Below are positions 20,300-30,860 of a DNA stretch of 64,000 bases, piece by piece. The translations under genes were made by a program, and so were the position numbers. The notes under the pieces were generated by a model. It worked only from the letters and a program-made list of their open reading frames with translations, ran no database searches and had not been told where the DNA came from. Source of the DNA: Candidatus Bathyarchaeota archaeon (GTDB lineage Archaea > Thermoproteota > Bathyarchaeia > 40CM-2-53-6); assembly GCA_963733055.1 (NCBI GenBank), contig CAVTBR010000001.1, positions 160,001 through 224,000 on the forward strand, given 5' to 3'. Position 1 is the first letter of the stretch, and every line of letters starts with the position of its first letter.

Positions 20300-20947
20300 T
20301 TACTCGATGCGTCGGCCGGCCTCGTTACGGAGGCAATCGAACATGAGCATCGTAACGTAGGCTCCTGGATCTGGCTTTCCGAGAGTCTGCTCTCCAAGAT
20401 ACCGCGCCTTTCCCCGCTTTGCCACAAAGCTCTTGGTCAATTCATAGCCAGCTTCAGCAGCATTCGCCGCATCTTCCAAAGCCAACAGAAGAGGCGTATT
20501 TTTCGAGGCCGAATTCTTGAGCGATGCCACTGCCGGATCGAGCACGTCGATAAGTGTCTTCTCGCCTGCATGTGCACCTCCACGGGCCTCCACTTTTCCC
20601 ATGGACGCCTCAAACATCGCCGCCAAGTCCGATACCCTTAGCTCGCTTCTCGATTTGGCAACATCTCCTGCCGACGCGAATAACGTACCGAATATCGGAC
20701 CCGCAGCTCCGCCAGCCGAGGAGAGTATCGCCCGCCCAGCCTCTGATAAGAGAAGGCCTGCATTATTGCTCCCTGGAGATTCGAGAACTTTCATGACTTT
20801 CTCGAAGGCTACGTGCATGGTTGTCCCAAAGTCCCCGTCTCCGCATGCCGCGTCCATTTTGTTCAATTCATCTTTTGATCCAAGAACACGGCGTGCAAAA
20901 TTCAGAAGGAAATCTCTGAACTGTGCGTAGGAGAGGGACTCTTCCAA
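20300..20947 (-). CDS. dhaL: Dihydroxyacetone kinase L subunit
   Basis: DAACGDGDFG, GGAAGPIFG, GEKTLIDV, GKARYLGE, DPGA; start taken at TTG 20947. Confidence 0.88.
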   Translation of the reverse strand: MEESLSYAQFRDFLLNFARRVLGSKDELNKMDAACGDGDFGTTMHVAFEKVMKVLESPGSNNAGLLLSEAGRAILSSAGGAAGPIFGTLFASAGDVAKSRSELRVSDLAAMFEASMGKVEARGGAHAGEKTLIDVLDPAVASLKNSASKNTPLLLALEDAANAAEAGYELTKSFVAKRGKARYLGEQTLGKPDPGAYVTMLMFDCLRNEAGRRIE

Positions 20948-20960
20948 CAGGCAACGCCCG

Positions 20961-21975
20961 TTAGGACTTCGGGACCGTTCCGCACCAGCGATACGCTGGC
21001 GTGACCAGCGGGTGCATCGAAACACTTCTTCAACTCTGGGTCGAGACGCATCAATGTCACCGAGCATCCTGCCATTTCTTGAGATGTTAGGAAATTGCCG
21101 ACTTCAGTTCGATGAATTGAGATCCCTAATTCTTTCAAGAGCTGATGGGTTTTTCGGTTTATGATGAAGAGTTCCATTAGCGTTGTGGAACCGTAGCCAT
21201 TGACGATAACGTTCACTTCATCGCCTTCCTTGAAAGGCAAATCCTTGACTACTTCATTCACGAGAGCTTGGGCGGTATCGTCCGCTGGAAGCAGCCCCGT
21301 CTTTCTGGTTCCTTTCTCTCCGTGCGCTCCGATTCCAAAATACATCTCCTCCGGCCCGATCGTGAAGGTCGGTTGTCCGCTCGTGGGGACTGTGGCGGGT
21401 GACAGGCCGACAGCGAAAGTGCGTGAGTTATCTCTAGCGCCCTCTGCCACTCTCCTCACTTCCGAAAGGCTTGCTCCCTCCTCGGCTTTCGCTCCTGCCA
21501 CTTTGATTACGAACAGATCACCAGCTAACCCACGCCTCTCCTGAACCGAATCGGGGGACGCCGAGGCTACATCGTCCCAGACGCGAACCGTAGCTGTCTC
21601 AATTCCGTCCTCTTTCGCATTTTCCGCAGCGATATCGAAGTTCATGTTGTCCCCCGAATAGTTTCCATAAACATACAAGATACCCTCCCCACCGTCTACC
21701 GCCTTGGTCGCATCGAGAATCATTGGCGGGGATGGGGCTGAGAAAACGTCGCCAAGCACCGCCGCATCAGCCATCCCGTACCCTACCCAGCCAAGGAAAA
21801 GTGGTTCATGCCCGCTGCCACCGCCTACGACCACACCAACTTTACCGGAAACGGGTGCACCTTGCCGCGCGACGACGTGTGGATTGACGAGCTTGACCAA
21901 CCGGTTGTATGCGCAGGTGAAACCTTCGATGCTTTCCACCGTCACGTTAAAGGGATCATTGATGAGCTTCTTCAA
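20961..21975 (-). CDS. dhaK: Dihydroxyacetone kinase K subunit; +1 frameshift near 21010-21012
   Basis: KKLINDP, GGGSGHEP, NYSGDNMNF, GIGAHGE, TSQEMAG; removing one base restores a DhaK-like end DAPLVTPAYRW...TAA and removes the overlap with dhaL. Confidence 0.9.
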
Positions 21976-22114
21976 TCGACCATCACTGAAAAGGCTGGAT
22001 TCGTAATCCAGCACGACTTAGCTTTAGCCTATCGGTACAGTGACTAGAAACATTCGACCGGCTATCGCAGTCGCGGTAATGATTGAAATCGGCGGATTCC
22101 GAAATTGATCGAGG

Positions 22115-22495
22115 CTACGCTGCCTTTGGTTTTTGCAACAGTACGTAGGCTGTCAGAGCCATTATGACAACCTGGGCGATGAAGACCTCAACGCTTCCAG
22201 GTGGGAACAAATCTGTGGAGAACCCAAATACTTGACCGCCTGACAGAGGTGTGGGAATTGTGGCGGTTATCAAGATCAATATGTTGTCGATGAGTGACAA
22301 GACGAAAAGGCCAATGGCAGCAGGTTTGAACAGCTTACCTGATGTCAGCACCGCGACGGCGCCCGCTGCAAAGAGTACTGTGGTAACCGAGAAGTAGAGT
22401 CCGATGGGGTCGGAGAATCCGGCCAAGGTCGTGTGCGCATAAGCGTTGTACAGTGCAACTATTAGAATCACGATCTTAACGGGAGAGACTTTCAT
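22115..22495 (-). CDS. Hypothetical four-TM membrane protein
   Basis: Hydrophobic ORF; ATG 22495 follows an AT-rich TATA-like tract. Confidence 0.6.
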   Translation of the reverse strand: MKVSPVKIVILIVALYNAYAHTTLAGFSDPIGLYFSVTTVLFAAGAVAVLTSGKLFKPAAIGLFVLSLIDNILILITATIPTPLSGGQVFGFSTDLFPPGSVEVFIAQVVIMALTAYVLLQKPKAA

Positions 22496-22667
22496 AACAT
22501 CTGACCTAGCTAGGCGATGATGTTTTAAACTATTTAAACTTACTATGTCTGTAGTAGGATGAAACAGAGCTTTCCGGACCACCGCGGGCCGGCGCCTCAT
22601 CAATTCTCCGAGTCGATTCGCTCACATGCTTGTCGGCCGGTACAAAGTTTCTTACCGTTTTCTGCGT

Positions 22668-22780: not shown

Positions 22781-24007
22781 TTGGGAGTTGTACAATCACT
22801 CGTCTGTCGTCGCTGTGATGCTGAAAGCCCGCCGCAAAGAACCATCTCATGTCCACAATGTTTTGCGCCACTTGACGTCACTTACGACCTTGATTCAATA
22901 GAGCTTACTCACTCTTCGTTTGAATCACGGGCGAGAACACTCTGGAGATACAAGGAGCTGCTCCCTGTTCAAGATTCGAAGAACATTGTTGATTTGAACG
23001 CTGGATTTACTCCGCTTCATCGGTGCAGAAATCTTGAGCGAGTTCTTGGATTACAGGAGCTGTACGTGAAGAATGATGGTTTGAACCCGACTAATTCTTT
23101 CAAGGACAGACCTGCTTCTGTGGCTATCTCCAAAGCGATCGAATTTCAGCTCGGGGTTGTTGGTGCAGTCTCGACTGGAAACCTCGCAGCCGCAATGTCC
23201 GCTCATGCAGCTAAAGCAAACCTACCCTGCTACATATTCATCCCTGAGGGGATAGAGGCAGGCAAGATCGCGCAGATCAACGCTTACGGCCCTCATATAT
23301 TGAGCGTCAGGGGGACCTACGATGACGCCAACCGTCTCGCGTACTTGGCTTCAGAGGAGTATGGTTGGACGATTGCCAACATAACCATGCGTCCCTACTA
23401 TGTCGAGGGTTCCAAGACTCTTGCTTTCGAGGTTTGTGAACAGTTAGGTTGGCAGGCTCCGGATCATATGATTGTAGCCGTTGGAAGCGGCGCCCTGATG
23501 CGAGCAATCTGGAAAGGGTTTGATGAATTTCACAAGATTGGCCTAATCGGGAATCGAACTCCGTCCATTCACGGCGCTCAAGCATCGGGATGCGCTCCTG
23601 TCGCCACAGCTTTCGAAAATAACACCGAAAAAATACGGCCGGTACCAAAACCCGACACAATAGCAAAGAGCATAGCGATCGGTGATCCGGGGGATGGAGC
23701 TTACGCCATCGAGGTTGCCAAGAGAACTAGTGGCACGATAGGCCAAGTGACGGATTCCGATATTCAAAAAGCCATAACCCTTCTCGCATCCAAAGAAGGA
23801 ATATTCGCTGAACCCGCCGGCGCGGTAACCATTGCATTACTCAACAAACTTGTCGACGAGGGACGTATCGATACCGATGAAAGCGTCGTCTGCTGCGTAA
23901 CGGGTAACGGGCTGAAGTCCGTCGAGGCTGTTCCAACCTACAACCAGCGTTGGCATACCCTCGACCCAACGCTTCAATCATTGAACGCGATTGTAGAAAA
24001 TGGGTGA
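22781..24007 (+). CDS. thrC: Threonine synthase-like PLP enzyme (fold type II)
   Basis: N-terminal CxxC...CxxC, NPTNSFKDR, STGNLAAA, EGSKT, AEPAG, TGNGLK. Confidence 0.85.
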   Translation: MGVVQSLVCRRCDAESPPQRTISCPQCFAPLDVTYDLDSIELTHSSFESRARTLWRYKELLPVQDSKNIVDLNAGFTPLHRCRNLERVLGLQELYVKNDGLNPTNSFKDRPASVAISKAIEFQLGVVGAVSTGNLAAAMSAHAAKANLPCYIFIPEGIEAGKIAQINAYGPHILSVRGTYDDANRLAYLASEEYGWTIANITMRPYYVEGSKTLAFEVCEQLGWQAPDHMIVAVGSGALMRAIWKGFDEFHKIGLIGNRTPSIHGAQASGCAPVATAFENNTEKIRPVPKPDTIAKSIAIGDPGDGAYAIEVAKRTSGTIGQVTDSDIQKAITLLASKEGIFAEPAGAVTIALLNKLVDEGRIDTDESVVCCVTGNGLKSVEAVPTYNQRWHTLDPTLQSLNAIVENG

Positions 24008-24600: not shown

Positions 24601-25449
24601 TTAGCCGTGGGGCAATTCCTTCTCGGCCTGCGTTAGCGTACATCCGACTGAACCACCTGGCTTAGATTGCGATTTGTGAGACCGATCGGATATGACGGCG
24701 ACAGTCGCTAACAATTCTTTACCGATTGCTGGGCGGGTTTCCGTGGGATCCATGTTGGTGTGGGTATTGCAATTTGGCTGACAGCGAAAAACATTGTCGG
24801 CTAATCTGCCCTCTACGTTTGTCCATTTTGACGTGTAATGCTCAGCGTTTAGTGAAGCGATTCGGAACTGGCGGTTCATCTTGCCGTTGCGTTCGGTGCA
24901 TTTCATTTCGAAGATGCCGTCGAAGAGGGGTTTGAGCATGCTCACGAAATTTGGTGGGTGGACGCCCTCTTCCAAGGTCAATATGCTTGGTACGTGGTCT
25001 TTGCGTAGACGTGCGGTCAGGACCTGGAGAAACTTGTAGGTAGCGGCAGGGCCAGCTTCTAGACTTAAGGTTGTGATGGAATCAAGTGCAAACGCGTAGC
25101 TTCTCATCTCGAGTCGAGCTTTGTCGATTACTATGCTCACCTCGCCTAAGCTGAGCCCGTTAGCCGACCAAGTAGCAGCTGGATCTTTCTCACCGAAGCG
25201 CCACGAATAGCTGTCGACGATCCGGAGAATGTTTTCTACATTACTGAACTTCGAGCGTTTTGAGAGAAGTTGGAGATGATGTGATGGGGGCTGATCGGTC
25301 ACAACGTAAAGGCATCTTTTCTGCTCTTCCAAGTAGTCGTGTAGAAACCTTAGGATGTAGCTAGTCTTGCCCGCGGTTGGTGGGCCAGTCAACAGCCACA
25401 CGCCCTCGGAAACATTCCCTTTGGTGAGCTGATCTGAACCTGGAAACAT
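24601..25449 (-). CDS. KaiC/RAD55-like RecA-superfamily ATPase, single domain
   Basis: Walker A GPPTAGKT, IVDSYS, Walker B FALDSIT, FDGIFEM. Confidence 0.8.
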   Translation of the reverse strand: MFPGSDQLTKGNVSEGVWLLTGPPTAGKTSYILRFLHDYLEEQKRCLYVVTDQPPSHHLQLLSKRSKFSNVENILRIVDSYSWRFGEKDPAATWSANGLSLGEVSIVIDKARLEMRSYAFALDSITTLSLEAGPAATYKFLQVLTARLRKDHVPSILTLEEGVHPPNFVSMLKPLFDGIFEMKCTERNGKMNRQFRIASLNAEHYTSKWTNVEGRLADNVFRCQPNCNTHTNMDPTETRPAIGKELLATVAVISDRSHKSQSKPGGSVGCTLTQAEKELPHG

Positions 25450-25452
25450 GTC

Positions 25453-26526
25453 TCAAGTTACCTTCTTTTCTAGAAGTGGAGCGACTCCGCGAAGTACGTT
25501 GGAAACCATGTATTCACGATCGGTCCTCCACCGTCCATTTTGGAACGGATCGGGATCAATGCCCCAGCGGAAGCTGGATAAGTAATCGCACCAGAACATT
25601 TCTACCAGAGAACAATGCAGCTTCAAGATACCGTACACGAGTGGGATATCGAGTGATGATAGCGTTGCATATAGTACGAAGCCGTCTTGTTCCGGCCACA
25701 GTGTGGACTGGAAAGGCAGCTCCGATACGGCAGCGGAGACTTGTTTCACGACACTGAAATTGCATTTGCAACGAAATAGTGCGATCGTCGCTAGCCCCGT
25801 TAGGAATGCGCCCGCTAGCACCCTGTAGCCTAGGATCACCTTTTCCGACTGTAAGAAATCCAATCTACGGCTCAAGGTGGATTCCGAAACTCCTACGTGT
25901 CTGGCTATGTCGCGTTGAGCTCGTAATATGTCGATAGAAACTTCACTTAGAATTCTCAAGTCGATTATATCAAGTCGATCAAGGATTGATGGCAAAGGGG
26001 CGGCCGGGGGAGGAGGGGCTGAGGACCAATTCCGCTCCCAAGTTTTCCAATCAAACGTCCAGCCTTTTCCAGGAGTGTAACGAGAGTAGTCCGTTTCAGG
26101 CATAGCTATATCGGCAATTGGGAAGTGGAGATCGTAGCTCTCTATTTTTCCTAAGCCTACTAGATTTTCAAACAATTCTAGTAGCAGGGCAGTGGTTCCG
26201 GGTGGAATTGCGAACCTCACAAAGAGAGCGCTCTCTGAGCCTGAACAGCGAATACGATACTGCGTGTACGGATGCTCGAGGCAAAGCGCTTCAAGGAGCG
26301 GCCATGAATCGGGCTGACAGCGAAGTATGCAGGCTACTGATTCTAAACCTACTCTACCGTAATTTACCTGGGCTGAAACTCCCAAGAGATTTTTTTCTGA
26401 CTTTAACCGTTCAATGGTTTTCGCCACATTCCCGCACGAGACTCCCAGCCGACCCGCAATGGCAATGTTTGATTGAAGCGGATTCTCTCCCAAGTACGAA
26501 AGCAGATTTAGCTCGAATTTATCCAT
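25453..26526 (-). CDS. Transcriptional regulator with two Lrp/AsnC-type winged-HTH modules
   Basis: LLSYLGENPLQSNIAIAGRLGVS and LDIIDLRILSEV...IARHVGVSESTLSRRL; strong RBS gggaggag. Confidence 0.8.
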   Translation of the reverse strand: MDKFELNLLSYLGENPLQSNIAIAGRLGVSCGNVAKTIERLKSEKNLLGVSAQVNYGRVGLESVACILRCQPDSWPLLEALCLEHPYTQYRIRCSGSESALFVRFAIPPGTTALLLELFENLVGLGKIESYDLHFPIADIAMPETDYSRYTPGKGWTFDWKTWERNWSSAPPPPAAPLPSILDRLDIIDLRILSEVSIDILRAQRDIARHVGVSESTLSRRLDFLQSEKVILGYRVLAGAFLTGLATIALFRCKCNFSVVKQVSAAVSELPFQSTLWPEQDGFVLYATLSSLDIPLVYGILKLHCSLVEMFWCDYLSSFRWGIDPDPFQNGRWRTDREYMVSNVLRGVAPLLEKKVT

Positions 26527-26571
26527 CTATAGCTCCTCCCTTCCCACCCGCATGAGAAAAAGAGAACGCAT

Positions 26572-26613
26572 CTCTAGTTAGGGGAGAAAACATAGAGGCT
26601 CCCCTACCTAGAG
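26572..26613 (-). terminator. 15-bp stem hairpin followed by a U-rich tract on the minus strand (terminator or transcript stabiliser)
   Basis: ctctagttaggggag 26572-26586 against ctcccctacctagag 26599-26613, one mismatch; minus strand continues ...gttctctttttctc. Confidence 0.6.
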
Positions 26614-26625
26614 CGCGCTTATTGG

Positions 26626-26838
26626 TCACCTAGTACCTGGACCCACATTACCCGGACCAATGCTCCCGCCGCACCTTGGATTGGGTGAGATACCGAAGTT
26701 CACGCCCTCTCCGACGCCAGGTTTAGCAAGAACGCATATGGGGCCTACCTGTACAAGGCATGCGAACACTGCACTGGCTTGTATCAGACCCACCACGATG
26801 ATCACGGCTAACACTAGGCCCAACGTTTTGCCCCGCAT
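26626..26838 (-). CDS. Small secreted Cys/Gly/Pro-rich peptide (70 aa)
   Basis: Signal peptide MRGKTLGLVLAVIIVVGLIQASAVFA then CLVQVGPIC...; ggtga RBS; strong TATA upstream; downstream hairpin. Confidence 0.7.
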   Translation of the reverse strand: MRGKTLGLVLAVIIVVGLIQASAVFACLVQVGPICVLAKPGVGEGVNFGISPNPRCGGSIGPGNVGPGTR

Positions 26839-26867
26839 TTCTTTCACCTACCTGCATAAATTGCTTA

Positions 26868-26882
26868 ATATATATAAAAAAC
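26868..26882 (-). promoter_or_regulatory. Archaeal TATA box for the peptide gene
   Basis: Minus strand ttttttatatatatt about 30 nt upstream of the start codon. Confidence 0.55.
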
Positions 26883-26939
26883 TTGCGCCCCACATGTTTA
26901 AAATCGTCATTGTCTTGGAAAAGTTTTGTTATTATTTTG

Positions 26940-29900
26940 TCAAAGTTTAGCTTCTGTTATCATCAGGTCGCGTTTTGCACCGAGTTTCCTGAAGAGTTCC
27001 GATGCCTCCCCGAGTCGCTTCTTCGATTCTTCAACCTTCGTCGTTCCTAGAAATTCAGCGTATGCTGCGAGGGCCTTGGCCTTGTAGTACGGCCAACCCG
27101 CCTTATCCCACAAAGCTAGGCATCCGAGATAAGCTTCCTCCGCTCCTTTGAGATCGCCAGTAGCAAGTAGGAGGTTTGCTTCAGCCTGCATAGCCATTGC
27201 CATGCCTGCTTGGCCATTCAGTTGCGCCGCAAGTCGTTTCGCCCACTGAGAACTGTTCCGTGCCTTCTCGATTTCTCCTTGCCTAGCATAAACTTGGGTT
27301 AAGTAGAGCAACGTTTCGATGTGATTTAATGGCTGAGTGCTGAATTCGGCATCTTTGAAGGCCTCAACATTTGATTCGAAATAAGGCTTAGCCTCATCGT
27401 CCCTTCCCTGTGCCATTCGGAGTTGGCCCAACTCCAGATTAACTTCAACAAGAGAGGCCAATGTTGAATCTCGCTTGATCAAGGATCGAAGATACCTTTC
27501 GAATTCCTCAGACTTTCCTTCCAACAGATGTCGAAGCTTTTCCCTTCGGAGTTTGTAGTATTCTGAGGGAGCCGCTCCGAGCCGGTCGAAGACTTCGAAG
27601 GCCTTGTCGGCTTCATTACGCGCCTTCCCCCAGTCTCCTCTTAGCATGTCCACATACGACAACCATCCCAGTGAGGTAGCTTGCATCATAATGTCGTTCA
27701 ATCTGGCTGCTAACTCGAATCGTTTCAGCATGAATTCGCGGGCTTTCGTGAGGTCTCTGGGATACCAGTATACACTCAAGTTAAGGGAAGCACGGAAGGC
27801 TTGAATGTATTGTTCGTGTTGCAGCGATAACTCGAGAGCCTTTTCCCAGAGCGTAAGGCCTTCGTCGATTTTGCCTGTGTCAGTTAGGAGCGCACCCTTA
27901 TTGCCAATTGCCATTGAGATGGCTTCGAAGTTCCCGCTTTTCTCTCCCGCCTTTAGACCACGTTCCGACCAATTAGCGACTTCGCTACGCTCCTCGCATA
28001 GACCATGGAACCAAGCTAATCTTGAATAGATCGCTGCGGCCTCAAAGCTTTCCTGATCGGATTCAACATTTTTGAGACCTCGTTCAAGCACCGAGATCGC
28101 TTCATGGTACGCTGTCGATTCGATAGTACTGAACCCTCCGCGGCCGATCGCGTCTGATAGTCTGACAGAAATTCGTGCACATGCCGTGAGGTTGTTCAGT
28201 CGGCTGAAGATTGAGCGGGCTAGCTCATAATCGCGCGCGCTTTCTTGAAGCCTACCAGCGTAAAAGTAGCATTCCGCTAGCTTCTCGAGGGCGCCCGCCT
28301 TAATCTCGTTATTTTCCCCTTCAAGATCCATTAGATCAGATGCGAGTTTGAAGTCGTGGATGGCAGCATCATATGCATGAACAGACCTGTTCCTATCTCC
28401 CGCCATGATTGAATACTTGACCGTCCGCTCCTTGTCGCCGCCCTCAGAGTAATGACTCGCTAACGCTTCAGCGTGGGATTCAAGGGTCTTCGAGTAATGC
28501 TTCTCCATAGACTCCGCAATCTTCAGATGATACCTCCGACGCTTCAGCAGGATCAGGTCTTCGAGTAACAGCTCCCGAACCCGTGGGTCTGCGAACCTTA
28601 GTCTGCCATGCTCCATCTGGAGCTCAACGACCAGCCCCTGATTTATAGTGGCTTCAAGCTTCTCGAGCAGTGTGTCTTCAGTGAGTTGCAAGGCTTCCTT
28701 TAGAATCTCGAAATCAAACTCGGACCCAATGACCGCCGCCCACTGGAGGATTGAGAGAGTTTCGGGGTCGAGTTTCGTAAGCCGAGCCCTAAGCGCCGTC
28801 TTTACACTTCTTGGAATGGTCAGGTCTTGGATTGGTTTTCGTTCCCATCCCTTGTCCGTACGATAGATTGTTCCATCCTCTACGAGTGATCGGAGAACCT
28901 CCTCAACAAAGAATGGGTTCCCGCCTGTTCTCTCAAAGAGAAGCTCCGCGAACTCGCCAGAGAGTGTTTGTTCGCCGAAAATGCCTTTGATCAGCTTTGT
29001 TGTACCCTCTAGGTCCAGACCTTTTACTGAAATGGTCTCCAGAAGCCGTTGCTTGTTGAATTTCATCATGGTCTGTTCAAGTGGGCTGTCAGCTTCAATA
29101 TCACGTTCCGGAGGCAGAGAGCAAACCATCAAGACGCGTGAGTCGGTACTGCTCCTGACCAAATATTCGAGCAAATCCAATGATGGCTGATCGGCGAATT
29201 GCATATCATCAAACAGCAAGAGGAGCGGAGATTCCTTACAAATGGAAATGAAGAACTGTGTGACAGCCTCGAAGAAGCGCAGCTTATCCTGTTGCTCTCC
29301 GAGGGACTTGGGTGGCGGAATAGTTCCAACCTTCACAGCGAGGTCCGGAACCAACTTCACAAGCTCAGAAGCGTTGGGACCCAGCATTCTTTGCAAAACT
29401 TCTCCAGCGGCTTGTGCCACATATTGCCTTGCAATTTCGATCCAAGGAGCGTAGGCTACTCCCTCCTCGGATGCGGTACCGGACAAGACCAATGAGATCT
29501 TGGATCTCGCGTAGGTTGCCAGCTCGTGCATGAGGCGTGTCTTGCCTACACCCGCCTCACCCTGCATCGCAACCACCGACCCTCGACCACCAAGTGCACT
29601 GTCAAACGATGCCTTGAGCCTGGAGAGTTCCTCTTTTCGACTCACGAAGGACGTTGCCCAACGGGGTTCCTTGGACGGAGCGGCTGCGACCGTACCAGAT
29701 GTTTCAGATACTCGTGTCTGAGCGGTCAAATCGACCAGTGACAGCTCTTTCTCCACAACCTCGACACCATGCATCCATTTTACTCGAAGTGACTTCTGTC
29801 CCTCCCCCTCGACGATCTCCAGATTACCATCAAAGAGACCAACAACGGCCTGGACATCTTCGCCGGAATGCATGTATGGATTCAAAACAGCGAGGGTCGT

Positions 29901-30347
29901 GATTGACTTTGATCTCAATCGTTCTAGTAGTTCTGTTAGCCATTTTCGTGTTTGGAGGCCCTTGTGGCGAAGCAGAACGTCGGACAGGATGTCGAGTACA
30001 ATACGTTTCGGTTGAATCGAGATTAAGGCGTCGTTCATCTGAAGGTTCAGGTCTGTGAGACTATCAATTCCCTTACCCGGAATCACGTTCTTTGAGGGTG
30101 GAACAGGTTTGTCGCTGCAAACAAGAACCTTGACGCCCTGAGTTGAATCATGCGTCACGATTTCGGCGGATGAAGACGTCCGACAGATCAGCAGACTCTC
30201 ATCCGATTCAACTCGCAGAAACCGTTTGAGAAGTATCGGCACCTCATCGCTTGCGGGAGCATTCAACACAATCATCGAACCCGCGAGGAATCCGCCCTGA
30301 AGAGCCTTGTCTAAGGTAGCGTACCCAGTCGAAACCTTACTCTTCAT
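26940..30347 (-). CDS. Multidomain protein: degenerate KaiC/RecA-like domain + STAND-type ATPase + TPR repeats
   Basis: STGYATLDKALQGG with eroded Walker A (NAPASDE); GEAGVGKT, LLFDDMQFAD, TGGNPFF; long Ala/Leu-rich helical repeat C-terminus. ATG 30347 preferred. Confidence 0.85.
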   Translation of the reverse strand: MKSKVSTGYATLDKALQGGFLAGSMIVLNAPASDEVPILLKRFLRVESDESLLICRTSSSAEIVTHDSTQGVKVLVCSDKPVPPSKNVIPGKGIDSLTDLNLQMNDALISIQPKRIVLDILSDVLLRHKGLQTRKWLTELLERLRSKSITTLAVLNPYMHSGEDVQAVVGLFDGNLEIVEGEGQKSLRVKWMHGVEVVEKELSLVDLTAQTRVSETSGTVAAAPSKEPRWATSFVSRKEELSRLKASFDSALGGRGSVVAMQGEAGVGKTRLMHELATYARSKISLVLSGTASEEGVAYAPWIEIARQYVAQAAGEVLQRMLGPNASELVKLVPDLAVKVGTIPPPKSLGEQQDKLRFFEAVTQFFISICKESPLLLLFDDMQFADQPSLDLLEYLVRSSTDSRVLMVCSLPPERDIEADSPLEQTMMKFNKQRLLETISVKGLDLEGTTKLIKGIFGEQTLSGEFAELLFERTGGNPFFVEEVLRSLVEDGTIYRTDKGWERKPIQDLTIPRSVKTALRARLTKLDPETLSILQWAAVIGSEFDFEILKEALQLTEDTLLEKLEATINQGLVVELQMEHGRLRFADPRVRELLLEDLILLKRRRYHLKIAESMEKHYSKTLESHAEALASHYSEGGDKERTVKYSIMAGDRNRSVHAYDAAIHDFKLASDLMDLEGENNEIKAGALEKLAECYFYAGRLQESARDYELARSIFSRLNNLTACARISVRLSDAIGRGGFSTIESTAYHEAISVLERGLKNVESDQESFEAAAIYSRLAWFHGLCEERSEVANWSERGLKAGEKSGNFEAISMAIGNKGALLTDTGKIDEGLTLWEKALELSLQHEQYIQAFRASLNLSVYWYPRDLTKAREFMLKRFELAARLNDIMMQATSLGWLSYVDMLRGDWGKARNEADKAFEVFDRLGAAPSEYYKLRREKLRHLLEGKSEEFERYLRSLIKRDSTLASLVEVNLELGQLRMAQGRDDEAKPYFESNVEAFKDAEFSTQPLNHIETLLYLTQVYARQGEIEKARNSSQWAKRLAAQLNGQAGMAMAMQAEANLLLATGDLKGAEEAYLGCLALWDKAGWPYYKAKALAAYAEFLGTTKVEESKKRLGEASELFRKLGAKRDLMITEAKL

Positions 30348-30860
30348 TGAAGTGGCAGGAGCTGGCTTTTCGGTCAAGTTTGCGAGGGCCCTAAACCTGC
30401 AAGCGTGTATGCTTCCCAAAAGAGGTTTACGGTCCGAGACAGCAAAAAGCTCATCATCTGACCCATTGTCCACAAATCAACATCTAGATGTTGCCCGAGA
30501 GTTAGCAACTAGCACAATTAGAAAAGGATATGATTCATTCGATCTTGATGACTTCGGTCTTCTTCCACTTCAGTGTACCATTTCTGTTTGGTTCCCATTC
30601 GACTGCGAATTTTCCAACCCATGGATTTAGGATTTATGACCCAACGACGAGCGCATATTCGATGTTCAAATAACAATAGATGATATTGCAACTGATAAAA
30701 GATAACGCGGGACCGAGGACGAAGAATTGATTGCTCCTCGCAGAAACCACACCGGGCCAAGGGTGCTACGATGACGCCTAACTTTTTCACGCGTCTTCAA
30801 CTGCATTGATGTCCGCAAAGGCATAAATACAAATCGAATGCAGCCTGTTGCAGGTTCGGT

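What the first reader, a model, noticed from the sequence alone, without database searches (positions are those of the whole stretch)
24601..30347. Candidate archaeal peptide-signalling cassette: KaiC-STAND-TPR sensor, secreted Cys peptide, double-Lrp regulator, KaiC-like ATPase
Seen: four co-oriented genes. The 70-aa gene has its own strong TATA, a signal peptide and a mature part beginning CLVQVGPIC (potential disulfide loop; VFA-C also resembles a lipobox). A strong hairpin follows, then a regulator and an ATPase only 3 nt apart. Established: TPR domains bind re-imported peptides in bacterial RRNPP quorum sensing; KaiC-like ATPases are proposed archaeal signalling hubs. Inference: an exported pheromone or antimicrobial peptide, a STAND-TPR receptor whose inactive KaiC domain hetero-oligomerises with the active one, and a transcriptional output. 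Linkage of the STAND gene to the other three could be coincidental.
Basis: partly seen in the sequence, partly recalled or inferred. Interest (0 to 1): 0.75.

Follow-up and report, generated by a model that had tools for sequence, protein, structure and literature searches.

The report
Archaeal exported peptide, regulator, ATPase cassette
A Bathyarchaeia genome carries a conserved three-gene unit (a small exported three-cysteine peptide, a double Lrp-type DNA-binding regulator and a KaiC-like ATPase) whose function is unknown, while the large STAND-TPR gene next to it is only a chance neighbour.

Summary
The described sequence features are all present. The four-gene interpretation holds only in part.

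**What is linked.** Three genes form a conserved cassette:
- a 70-aa signal-peptide ORF
- a tandem Lrp/AsnC regulator
- a single-domain KaiC-like ATPase

The same order and the same 3-nt regulator-ATPase spacing recur in metagenome loci L035-L037; L034 and L043 hold cut copies.

**The small ORF is a real gene family.**
- There are 12 clusters, and each of the 11 complete ones has three mature-part Cys, the first right after the [FIL]A cleavage motif.
- A profile built without the window sequence finds the window ORF uniquely in its genome.

**STAND-TPR is not linked.** It belongs to a multi-copy family. Its 89% ortholog in G013 sits in the same synteny without the cassette.

**Wider pattern.** Every regulator homologue with readable upstream DNA (22 of 22 loci, Bathyarchaeia and Asgard) lies beside an exported-protein gene. 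This is usually a ~160-aa β-sandwich protein with no Pfam family (385 clusters at 50% identity). The short peptides look like reduced forms that keep the export signal and a DP..GG..GP tail.

**Function.** Peptide signalling is neither shown nor excluded. My best reading is a locally regulated exported peptide, with the ATPase modulating the regulator.

The parts
26871..26878 (-). TATA-like element TTTATATA, 32 nt upstream of the ATG of the peptide gene
   Evidence: Single match in the window, although 49 of 100 shuffles have at least one match. The position fits an archaeal promoter. The aligned segment in L036 and L037 is less TATA-like.
26844..26848 (-). GGTGA ribosome-binding-like motif, 5 nt before the ATG
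   Evidence: Read. GGTGAAA is invariant in window, L035, L036 and L037.
26626..26838 (-). Gene for a 70-aa pre-peptide. Residues 1-26 form a Sec-type signal peptide ending VFA. The mature part is 44 aa: CLVQVGPIC...NPRCGGSIGPGNVGPGTR, with 3 Cys.
   Evidence: Orthologues lie directly upstream of the regulator in L034-L037. There are 12 clusters in the protein collection. A profile built without the window row hits this ORF at E 6.3e-11, next best 0.51, among 55,973 ORFs of the genome. pN/pS is about 0.3.
26557..26619 (-). Hairpin (26619-26565) followed by a T5 tract (26561-26557), between the peptide gene and the regulator gene. Read as a likely partial terminator or attenuator.
   Evidence: -29.8 kcal/mol, z -2.56. 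A hairpin plus T5-T6 tract is at the same place in L036 (-21.1 kcal/mol, z -0.95) and L037 (-24.1 kcal/mol, z -2.83). The role as terminator is inferred.
25453..26526 (-). Tandem Lrp/AsnC-type regulator, 357 aa: two units of wHTH plus RAM-like αβ domain, forming a pseudo-dimer
   Evidence: Pfam HTH_AsnC-type 2.3e-13 in two stretches. AF2 pLDDT 94.2, pTM 0.90. Foldseek: full length matches NirDL 4ch7 (E 2.1e-13, TM 0.54/0.60, 13% id); the halves match Lrp/AsnC/FFRP regulators (TM by target 0.7-0.78).
24601..25449 (-). Single-domain KaiC-like (DUF7504) P-loop ATPase, 282 aa, starting 3 nt after the regulator stop
   Evidence: PF06745 1.7e-11 and PF24336 6.2e-11. Walker A GPPT[AS]GKTS and Walker B ALDS are conserved in 4 orthologues. 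It lies downstream of the regulator in 6 of 6 loci of the 79-81% clade.
26940..30473 (-). STAND protein (degenerate KaiC-like N-domain + AAA_16 + TPR). Adjacent to the cassette but not part of it.
   Evidence: Searches give the architecture. Searches show that linkage is not conserved: the cassette looks inserted beside STAND relative to G013.

Best explanation
This is a three-gene accessory operon of a Bathyarchaeia archaeon. The STAND gene beside it is an unrelated neighbour.

**Shown**
- Gene 1 encodes a Sec-type pre-peptide. Its mature 44-aa part starts with Cys and carries three conserved Cys and a conserved NP[RK]CGG..GP tail.
- Gene 2 encodes a tandem Lrp/AsnC pseudo-dimer with two wHTH domains.
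- Gene 3 encodes a single-domain KaiC-like ATPase with intact Walker motifs, 3 nt downstream of gene 2.
- The regulator family is always found beside a gene for an exported protein. That partner is usually a ~160-aa β-sandwich protein.

**Inferred**
- The short peptide is a reduced descendant of that β-sandwich partner.
- The peptide gene is transcribed from its own promoter, and most transcripts stop at the hairpin/T-tract. Read-through then gives low levels of the regulator and the ATPase.
- The regulator controls the promoter of the exported-protein gene as a local, probably autoregulatory, circuit.
- The ATPase modulates the regulator using nucleotide. The models are GvpD acting on GvpE (recalled) and CirA, which has been proposed to act on the Lrp-type CsmR.

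What the exported peptide does outside the cell is not known. It could be a surface component, a signal or an antimicrobial.
For: **Cassette conservation**
- Peptide, regulator and ATPase occur in the same order and spacing in L035, L036 and L037, which hold the ATPase whole. L034 has all three genes with the ATPase cut by the contig end. L043 is cut at the regulator's 5' side, so it has no peptide region.
- L034-L036 are one population. Window, L037 and L043 are distinct.

**The peptide is a real gene**
- 12 clusters exist.
- All 11 complete members have exactly 3 Cys in the mature part, the first at +1.
- pN/pS is about 0.3 in the signal and tail regions.
- A profile without the window row finds the window ORF uniquely.

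**Pairing of regulator and exported protein**
- 22 of 22 loci with upstream DNA show it. The breakdown is 5 short co-oriented, 13 long co-oriented, 2 long divergent, 1 long on the opposite strand about 1 kb away, and 1 clear 82-aa deletion form (L039 against L040).
- Five of the long hits come from loci not used to build the profile: L030, L031, L032, L041 and L044.

**Shared tail motif**
- The motif is found in 11 of 12 short forms, 9 of 15 long forms, 40 of 149 representatives and 1 of 17,352 genome ORFs (the motif was defined after seeing the sequences).

**Regulator and transcription signals**
- Regulator fold.
- Hairpin plus T-tract conserved in place.

**Precedent**
- CirA (KaiC-like) is proposed to tune the Lrp/AsnC-type CsmR in Haloferax (PMC13286277, passages read).
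Against: - No binding site, transcript or protein data exist. No RNA run was available.
- Sequence profiles do not link the window peptide to the long partner family. An HMM of long forms gives no hit at E<=100. hhalign gives 10% probability and aligns only the signal peptide. 'Reduced descendant' therefore rests on position, the L039 intermediate and a post-hoc tail motif.
- The ATPase is linked only in the 79-81% clade. Elsewhere the third gene is a 113-143-aa protein or nothing, so its role may be peripheral.
- With 37 KaiC-family matches in this genome, adjacency to a KaiC gene is not rare by itself.
- The regulator's best full-length structural match is an enzyme, NirDL.
- The TATA element is not well conserved in the relatives.
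Confidence: 0.5

Rival explanations
1. Peptide autoinducer (quorum-sensing-like) circuit. The exported Cys peptide, or its conserved C-terminal tail, accumulates outside the cell. It is then sensed, after import or indirectly, by the tandem Lrp's RAM-like domains and/or the KaiC-like ATPase, which feed back on the operon.
For: - A small Sec-exported pro-peptide gene lies next to a cytoplasmic regulator. This is the gene logic of PapR-PlcR, Phr-Rap and SHP-Rgg (recalled; PMC13361665 seen only as a listing).
- The peptide gene has its own promoter and is followed by a hairpin and T-tract.
- The middle of the peptide is variable while the ends are conserved.
- RAM domains of Lrp proteins bind small ligands (solved complexes with amino acids are listed).
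Against: - In 16 of 22 homologous loci the partner is a folded ~160-aa β-sandwich protein. Such a protein is unlikely to be re-imported.
- No TPR receptor is linked.
- No peptide transporter lies in the cassette.
- Peptide subtype and regulator similarity do not track each other in the few pairs available. The window-type peptide P0025 appears to go with regulator P0005, which is 84% identical to P0002 but 79% to the window. That pairing is inferred from equal contig length only.
Confidence: 0.15
2. One reading: a four-gene system in which the STAND-TPR protein is the peptide receptor and its dead KaiC domain pairs with the active KaiC-like ATPase.
For: - The genes are adjacent and co-oriented in the window.
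- The STAND N-domain is a P-loop-less KaiC-like domain, with weak similarity to the cassette ATPase (E 1e-5 over 83 aa, 25% identity).
Against: - STAND is absent upstream of the cassette in L034, L036 and L037.
- STAND is a multi-copy family. It has 3 full-length copies in G000, and many proteins share only the N-domain.
- The 89% ortholog in G013 keeps the flanking synteny (membrane protein, DhaK/DhaL) without the cassette. No regulator orthologue was found in G013, which is 87% complete.
Confidence: 0.03
3. The peptide is an antimicrobial (archaeocin-like) product, and the two downstream genes regulate its production.
For: - It is a small, exported, Gly/Asn/Pro-rich peptide with three Cys, and the family is diversifying.
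- It has its own promoter and a hairpin after the structural gene.
- The distribution is patchy and accessory: the peptide profile is found in 1 of 61 related genomes.
Against: - No immunity, transporter or modification gene lies in or next to the cassette in the window, L036 or L037.
- The relation to a β-sandwich surface-type protein family does not suggest a toxin.
Confidence: 0.07
4. The 'regulator' is not a transcription factor. It would instead be an Lrp-fold enzyme or chaperone, like the siroheme decarboxylases NirDL and AhbAB, acting on or with the exported protein.
For: - The best full-length structural match is NirDL (4ch7, E 2.1e-13).
- There is a weak NirdL-like_HTH Pfam hit (E 2.6e-4).
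- The Lrp ligand-binding domain PF01037 is not detected at sequence level.
Against: - Identity to NirDL is only 12-13% and TM is 0.54-0.60. That match mainly reflects the shared tandem layout.
- Both HTH units still score well as AsnC-type HTH (2.3e-13).
- I recognised no heme or heme d1 genes among the ORFs near the cassette (read by eye).
- The partner is exported while this protein has no signal peptide.
Confidence: 0.07
5. The small ORF is a decaying remnant of the long exported-protein gene with no function of its own, and the cassette is just a regulator-ATPase pair.
For: - Short forms arise by deletion, as in L039 against L040.
- The β-sandwich core is gone.
- Profile searches do not connect short and long forms.
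Against: - There are 12 clusters with an open frame, an invariant Cys pattern and a conserved tail.
- pN/pS is about 0.3.
- The ribosome-binding motif and the downstream hairpin are conserved.
Confidence: 0.08

Closest known systems
RRNPP / Rgg-SHP type peptide-regulator cassettes of Firmicutes (PapR-PlcR, Phr-Rap, SHP-Rgg)
   Same: A small exported pro-peptide gene lies directly beside a cytoplasmic regulator gene. Conservation in the mature peptide is concentrated near its C-terminus.
   Different: - The linked regulator has an Lrp/AsnC tandem fold with no TPR.
- The only TPR protein nearby is not conserved in linkage.
- The mature peptide is long (44-56 aa) and has 3 Cys.
- The homologous partner is usually a folded 160-aa protein.
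- The organism is an archaeon.
- Nothing is known about import.
Lrp/AsnC (FFRP) transcription regulators, including archaeal local regulators
   Same: Each half is a wHTH plus an αβ RAM-like domain. TM by target is 0.7-0.78 to PH0061, AsnC, Lrp, ST1022 and PH1519.
   Different: - Two units are fused into one 357-aa chain.
- PF01037 is not detected by sequence.
- It is a separate family with its own invariant motifs (HPYT, LPFQ, W.DY.SS.R).
- It has an obligate exported-protein neighbour.
Siroheme decarboxylase NirDL / AhbAB (Lrp-fold enzymes)
   Same: The tandem Lrp-like layout is shared, and this is the best full-length structural match (4ch7).
   Different: Identity is 12-13%. There is no heme-pathway context. 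The HTH motifs are well preserved.
KaiC-like ATPases that act on transcription regulators: GvpD on GvpE in haloarchaeal gas-vesicle control (recalled) and CirA with CsmR in Haloferax (PMC13286277). General proposal: Makarova et al. 2017, mBio (not held; recalled, reference seen).
   Same: A single-domain RecA/KaiC-type P-loop ATPase is genetically coupled to a DNA-binding regulator. In the CsmR case the regulator is of the Lrp/AsnC type.
   Different: - Here the two genes are translationally coupled, 3 nt apart.
- They follow an exported-peptide gene.
- No biochemical link is shown.
- The ATPase is of the divergent DUF7504 type.
Bacterial/archaeal lipobox lipoproteins
   Same: A hydrophobic signal peptide is followed by an invariant Cys at +1. 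Position -3 is Val and -1 is Ala.
   Different: Position -2 is Phe, or Leu in P0023; Ile, which fits the consensus, occurs only in P0018. Predicted lipoproteins are reported as few in TACK and Asgard archaea (PMC12462473, passage read).

Membership tests
RRNPP-type peptide quorum sensing | Small exported pro-peptide gene adjacent to the receptor-regulator gene | tested here: met
   Peptide ORF directly upstream of the regulator in window and L034-L037.
RRNPP-type peptide quorum sensing | Receptor carries a TPR-type peptide-binding domain | tested here: not met
   The linked regulator has no TPR and its fold is tandem Lrp. The TPR-bearing STAND gene is not conserved in linkage.
RRNPP-type peptide quorum sensing | Mature peptide is re-imported and binds the regulator | not testable with these tools
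No transporter gene is in the cassette.
Lrp/AsnC (FFRP) regulators | N-terminal wHTH of AsnC type | tested here: met
   PF13404 at 2.3e-13 in two stretches and PF13412 at 6.9e-13.
Lrp/AsnC (FFRP) regulators | C-terminal RAM (αβ sandwich) effector domain | tested here: met
   Met at fold level: βαββαβ units in the AF2 model and matches to solved Lrp/AsnC proteins. PF01037 is not detected by sequence.
Siroheme decarboxylase NirDL/AhbAB | Tandem or heterodimeric Lrp-like fold | tested here: met
   4ch7 at E 2.1e-13, TM 0.54/0.60.
Siroheme decarboxylase NirDL/AhbAB | Genomic context of heme or heme d1 biosynthesis, and catalytic residues | tested here: not met
   I recognised no heme-pathway genes among the neighbouring ORFs, judged by eye from the translations; only the four cassette-region proteins were scanned against family libraries. 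The catalytic residues were not examined.
KaiC/RecA-superfamily ATPase (PF06745; DUF7504) | Walker A GxxxxGK[ST] and Walker B hhhhD | tested here: met
   GPPTAGKTS and FALDS, conserved in 4 orthologues.
Circadian-type KaiC | Two tandem KaiC domains with autokinase sites, plus KaiA/KaiB partners | tested here: not met
   One domain of about 200 aa. The score against the KaiC equivalog PRK09302 is 23 bits against a cut-off of 408.
STAND NTPase with TPR sensor (MalT-like) | AAA_16/NACHT-type NTPase followed by TPR | tested here: met
   AAA_16 at 1.6e-24, TPR_12 at 8.1e-14 and TPR_MalT at 2.1e-7. This applies to the neighbour gene only.
Lipobox lipoprotein | [LVI]-3 [ASTVI]-2 [GAS]-1 C+1 at the end of the signal peptide | tested here: inconclusive
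   The window has V-F-A-C. Positions -3, -1 and +1 fit, while -2 (Phe) does not. P0018 (V-I-A-C) fits fully. The motif is as quoted in the abstract of PMC12462473.
Type IV pilin-like (class III) signal peptide | [KR]-[GA] cleavage site before the hydrophobic stretch | tested here: not met
   No conserved Gly/Ala after the charged residues in the 12 family members. The defining motif is recalled.
Long exported partner family (~160 aa β-sandwich, no Pfam) | Match to the family profile | tested here: not met
   The window peptide is not among the hits at E<=100. hhalign gives 10% probability, signal peptide only. Only the position beside the regulator and the tail motif are shared.

The most novel reading that the evidence does not exclude
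The exported partner of the tandem-Lrp family is the carrier of a signalling epitope, the conserved C-terminal DP..GG..GP tail. In this Bathyarchaeia lineage the carrier has been stripped down to a 44-56-aa Cys peptide. The cassette would then be a peptide-based cell-cell signalling circuit in archaea, read out through an Lrp-fold receptor and a KaiC-like ATPase instead of a TPR receptor. The same logic may operate in the ~385 related pairs in Bathyarchaeia and Asgard archaea.
Probability: 0.12. Interest if true: 0.85.

Novelty: new variant of a known kind. Interest (0 to 1): 0.55.

Why it matters
Peptide-based communication has not been established in archaea (recalled; my three literature searches, listed no paper whose title or abstract opening describes this gene pair, and I opened only PMC13286277 and PMC6393860 from them). 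KaiC-like ATPases are abundant but mostly unassigned archaeal signalling parts; this genome alone has 37 matches.

This work delimits a compact, testable three-gene unit. More broadly, it identifies a two-gene pairing (exported β-sandwich protein plus tandem Lrp regulator) that is conserved from Bathyarchaeia to Heimdall-, Hod- and Thorarchaeota. The exported partner has no Pfam family and about 385 clusters at 50% identity.

The work also gives a clean example of a folded secreted protein being reduced to a short Cys peptide while keeping its export signal and tail. Even if the function turns out to be ordinary local regulation of a surface protein, the pair is a useful handle on uncultured archaea.

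Tried and rejected
- **Complex prediction, regulator (A4) with the KaiC-like ATPase (A7, residues 1-215).** The result was 'no answer', score 0.00. It is not used as evidence either way.
- **RNA evidence.** No RNA holder was listed for window:24601-27000.
- **HMM of the long partners against all 55,973 ORFs of the genome.** There was no hit on the window peptide and no full-length partner anywhere in G000; the best E was 4.2.
- **hhalign of short against long alignments.** Only the signal peptide aligned, at 10% probability.
- **Foldseek of the long partner model against the PDB.** No match at E<=0.001. The best matches were generic β-sandwiches (LEA-like 1yyc, RbmA, ApaG).
- **ESM Atlas look-up of the long partner.** Scores were 0.85 or lower, so leads only (Ig-like).
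- **PADLOC.** Only generic HTH/TPR hits, with no defence system.
- **Flanking repeats around the cassette.** Only short matches at chance level.
- **Sigma-70 and terminator scan.** At or below the shuffle expectation. The scan is not designed for archaeal promoters.
- **Earlier findings of this scan.** Nothing was returned.
- **Makarova et al. 2017 (PMC5717392).** The paper is not held. Its text and supplementary neighbourhood tables, which might already list this arrangement, were not seen.
- **Class III (pilin-type) signal peptide.** Considered and rejected from the 12 sequences.
- **Peptide-regulator co-variation.** No conclusion is possible.

Full report
**1. What is in the sequence**

The window is G000:C1:160001-224000. 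Its relatives are recorded as Candidatus Bathyarchaeia MAGs. Four co-oriented minus-strand ORFs occupy 24601-30473.

The 1177-aa protein (26940-30473):
- It has AAA_16 (E 1.6e-24) and TPR domains.
- It has a weak N-terminal KaiC-like match (PF06745, 25.7 bits against a cut-off of 26.6).
- Aligned with real KaiC proteins, its P-loop is replaced by NAPASDEVP.

The small ORF:
- It runs 26626-26847 from a GTG. Comparison with relatives points to the ATG at 26838 as the start, giving 70 aa, with the invariant GGTGA 5 nt upstream.
- The product reads MRGK, then a 15-residue hydrophobic core, then QASAVFA, then CLVQVGPIC...NPRCGGSIGPGNVGPGTR.

Signals around the small ORF:
- TTTATATA lies 32 nt upstream of the ATG. 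It is the only copy in the window, but one or more copies occur in 49 of 100 shuffles.
- A hairpin (26619-26565; -29.8 kcal/mol; z -2.56; 3 of 200 shuffles as good) is followed by a T5 tract.

The two downstream genes:
- The 357-aa protein has two AsnC-type HTH units.
- The 282-aa protein starts 3 nt after the regulator's stop. It is a KaiC/DUF7504 ATPase with GPPTAGKTS and ALDS motifs.

**2. The STAND gene is a chance neighbour**

- A search of 41 genomes with residues 1-700 found matches in 23 at E<=1e-10.
- G000 itself has three full-length copies: the window copy, C1:97700 (64%) and C3:498706 (57%, with one TAA in frame). Many further proteins share only the degenerate KaiC-like N-domain.
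- The closest copy (89%) is in G013. Directly downstream there lie a 127-aa protein, a membrane protein homologous to window 22115-22603, and the DhaK/DhaL genes homologous to window 20300-22014.
- Relative to G013, the window therefore has the peptide-regulator-ATPase block, plus an ORF I take to be a threonine synthase gene (a name read from its translation, no family scan; 22781-24007), between STAND and that membrane protein.
- No regulator orthologue was found in G013, which is 87% complete; its best hit was E 6.1e-5 to an ordinary Lrp.
- In metagenome loci with the orthologous cassette and enough upstream DNA (L034, L036, L037), no STAND gene precedes the peptide gene.

**3. The three-gene cassette is conserved**

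The regulator has 12 relatives in the 5.8-billion-protein collection, at 81, 81, 81, 79, 74 (partial), 61, 60, 59, 58, 49, 40 and 38% identity. A metagenome scan returned 13 loci.

In the 79-81% clade:
- The small ORF (77-86 aa) lies directly upstream in L034, L035, L036 and L037.
- The KaiC-like ATPase lies 3 nt downstream in L034 (cut), L035, L036, L037 and L043, the last being cut at the 5' side.
- L034-L036 are nearly identical to each other. Window, L037 and L043 differ.

Among 61 species-representative genomes of the genus, family and order:
- Full-length relatives of the regulator were found only in G000, G011 and G021, the latter two at 31% identity.
- The peptide profile was found only in G000, apart from two chance-level hits inside long ORFs.

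The cassette is therefore an accessory, patchily distributed unit.

**4. The small ORF is a real gene family**

- A profile search found 12 clusters of 53-83 aa.
- All 11 complete members have a hydrophobic signal, then [FIL]-A-C, then exactly three Cys in a 44-56-aa mature part. Ten of the 11, and 11 of all 12 clusters, also carry the tail [ND]P[RK]CGG..(A)GP.
- The middle is variable. Most members have NGQG..NGNGNPGG.C there. The window and P0025 have LV..G..C.
- A profile built only from the metagenome peptides hits the window ORF at E 6.3e-11, next best 0.51, among 55,973 ORFs. A profile of the mature part alone gives 0.0035, next best 0.91.
- Codon comparison gives pS 0.26-0.47 against pN 0.08-0.15 in the signal region, and a similar ratio in the tail. 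The counts are small.
- A hairpin plus T5-T6 tract follows the ORF in window, L036 and L037.

**5. A wider, older pairing**

I scanned 25 loci (the window plus L023-L046) with profiles, some of which were built from the same sequences. The regulator has an exported-protein gene beside it in all 22 loci that contain upstream DNA:
- 5 short forms, co-oriented
- 13 long forms, co-oriented
- 2 long forms, divergent (the G011 and G021 loci)
- 1 long form on the opposite strand about 1 kb away (L030)
- L039, whose 82-aa ORF is an evident deletion form of the 174-aa L040 protein, sharing GPHIIAFNF and GGHGPPG

Five long hits (L030, L031, L032, L041, L044) were not in the profile's training set.

The hosts include Bathyarchaeia, Thor-, Hod- and Heimdallarchaeota.

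The long partner:
- It has no Pfam match (0 real hits for 10 members).
- It has 385 representative clusters at E<=0.001. These include one 6466-aa protein with 35 repeats of the domain.
- It folds with confidence (pLDDT 91.6) into an N-terminal helix plus a nine-strand β-sandwich, without a significant PDB match.

The third gene varies. It is the KaiC-like ATPase in 6 of 25 loci, which is all of the 79-81% clade. It is a 113-143-aa protein without a Pfam family in 5 of 25.

**6. Are the short peptides reduced long partners?**

For:
- They occupy the same position beside the same regulator family.
- L039 is an intermediate.
- The signal peptide ends in VFA in both short and nearest long forms.
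- They share a tail motif, [DN]P.{1,3}GG.{0,4}G.?P, within the last 25 residues. It occurs in 11 of 12 short forms, 9 of 15 long forms, 40 of 149 representatives and 1 of 17,352 genome ORFs. The motif was chosen after seeing the data.

Against:
- The long-form HMM does not find the window peptide.
- hhalign aligns only the signal peptide, at 10% probability.

I hold this as likely but not shown.

**7. The regulator and the ATPase**

- The AF2 model of the regulator (pLDDT 94.2, pTM 0.90) is two wHTH plus βαββαβ units.
- Foldseek puts the siroheme decarboxylase NirDL first for the full length (E 2.1e-13, TM 0.54/0.60, 12-13% identity). Classical Lrp/AsnC/FFRP regulators match each half.
- The well-kept HTH profiles, and no heme-pathway gene that I could recognise among the neighbouring ORFs (by eye), favour a DNA-binding regulator.
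- The ATPase is a single RecA/KaiC-like domain with conserved Walker motifs.
- A functional tie between a KaiC-like protein and an Lrp/AsnC-type regulator has been proposed for CirA and CsmR in Haloferax volcanii (PMC13286277, passages read).
- The general proposal that KaiC-like ATPases are archaeal signalling hubs (Makarova et al. 2017) is cited from memory. That paper is not held.

**8. Mechanism**

Shown:
- gene order
- conservation
- export-type signal
- Cys pattern
- fold of the regulator
- ATPase motifs

Inferred:
- The peptide gene is the highly expressed first cistron, with partial termination at the hairpin and T-tract.
- The tandem Lrp controls that promoter.
- The ATPase modulates the regulator.

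The extracellular role of the peptide is open. A signalling role keeps some probability because the gene logic resembles PapR-PlcR-type cassettes. However, the usual partner is a folded protein, no TPR receptor is linked, and no importer is present.

The lipobox reading is weak. Position -2 is Phe, and lipoproteins are reported as few in TACK and Asgard archaea (PMC12462473; abstract and passage read).

**9. Novelty and verdict**

Three literature searches listed no paper whose title or abstract opening describes this pair or cassette, and I opened only two of the listed papers.

I file the finding as a new variant of a known kind: a regulator with a neighbouring exported product plus a KaiC-type modulator. 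It comes with an uncharacterised and widely conserved partner family. Interest is 0.55. The four-gene STAND-centred model is not supported.

Noticed in passing
G000 whole genome; window 24601-25449 and 29766-30074 are two of the matches: The genome (2.88 Mb) has 37 matches to the KaiC family PF06745, 33 of them over the curated cut-off, which is a large expansion. Many proteins in this genus also share the P-loop-less KaiC-like N-domain of the STAND protein, fused to different C-terminal parts.
   Followed up: partly
L040:1987-2328, L039:2133-2474, L021:6363-6794, L022:1131-1505, L036:12583-12945; G000 copies listed: A 113-143-aa protein family without a Pfam match follows the tandem Lrp regulator in 5 of 25 loci, in place of the KaiC-like ATPase. 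It has 12 copies in G000. In L036 one copy precedes a wHTH gene and a canonical KaiC gene. In G000 three copies lie within about 1.5 kb of KaiC genes: C3:390840 is adjacent to C3:390194-390823, and C3:757718 and C3:758141 lie near C3:759372.
   Followed up: partly
G000:C1:1141000-1153500 (outside the window): A second island holds several copies of the 113-aa family, a 345-aa tandem-wHTH paralogue (1150703-1151740), a 184-aa Lrp-like gene (1149781-1150335) and an 84-aa signal-peptide ORF ending HDPPP (1152526-1152780).
   Followed up: no
L036:5234-7362 (minus strand) and L022:3484-3837: In L034 and L036 the cassette is preceded by a divergent operon. It contains a 192-aa Lrp (HTH + AsnC_trans_reg), a 361-aa tandem-Lrp paralogue (regulator profile E 2.7e-65) and a 145-aa protein with the motif HPKIRWAG. 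A homologue of that last protein lies beside the long exported partner in G021.
   Followed up: no
P0052: A 6466-aa protein carries 35 repeats of the long-partner β-sandwich domain. This suggests that the domain is an extracellular, adhesin-type module.
   Followed up: no
G000:C3:498706-500724; G011:C2:52542-54596; G019:C32 and C48; G004:C9: Several full-length STAND paralogues carry one or two in-frame stop codons (TAA, TAG or TGA). These may be pseudogenes, sequencing errors or recoding.
   Followed up: no
L055:2654-4330 (G013) against window 20300-22014: The DhaK/DhaL genes that are intact in the window appear split into four shorter ORFs in G013. Gene decay or assembly errors are possible.
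   Followed up: no
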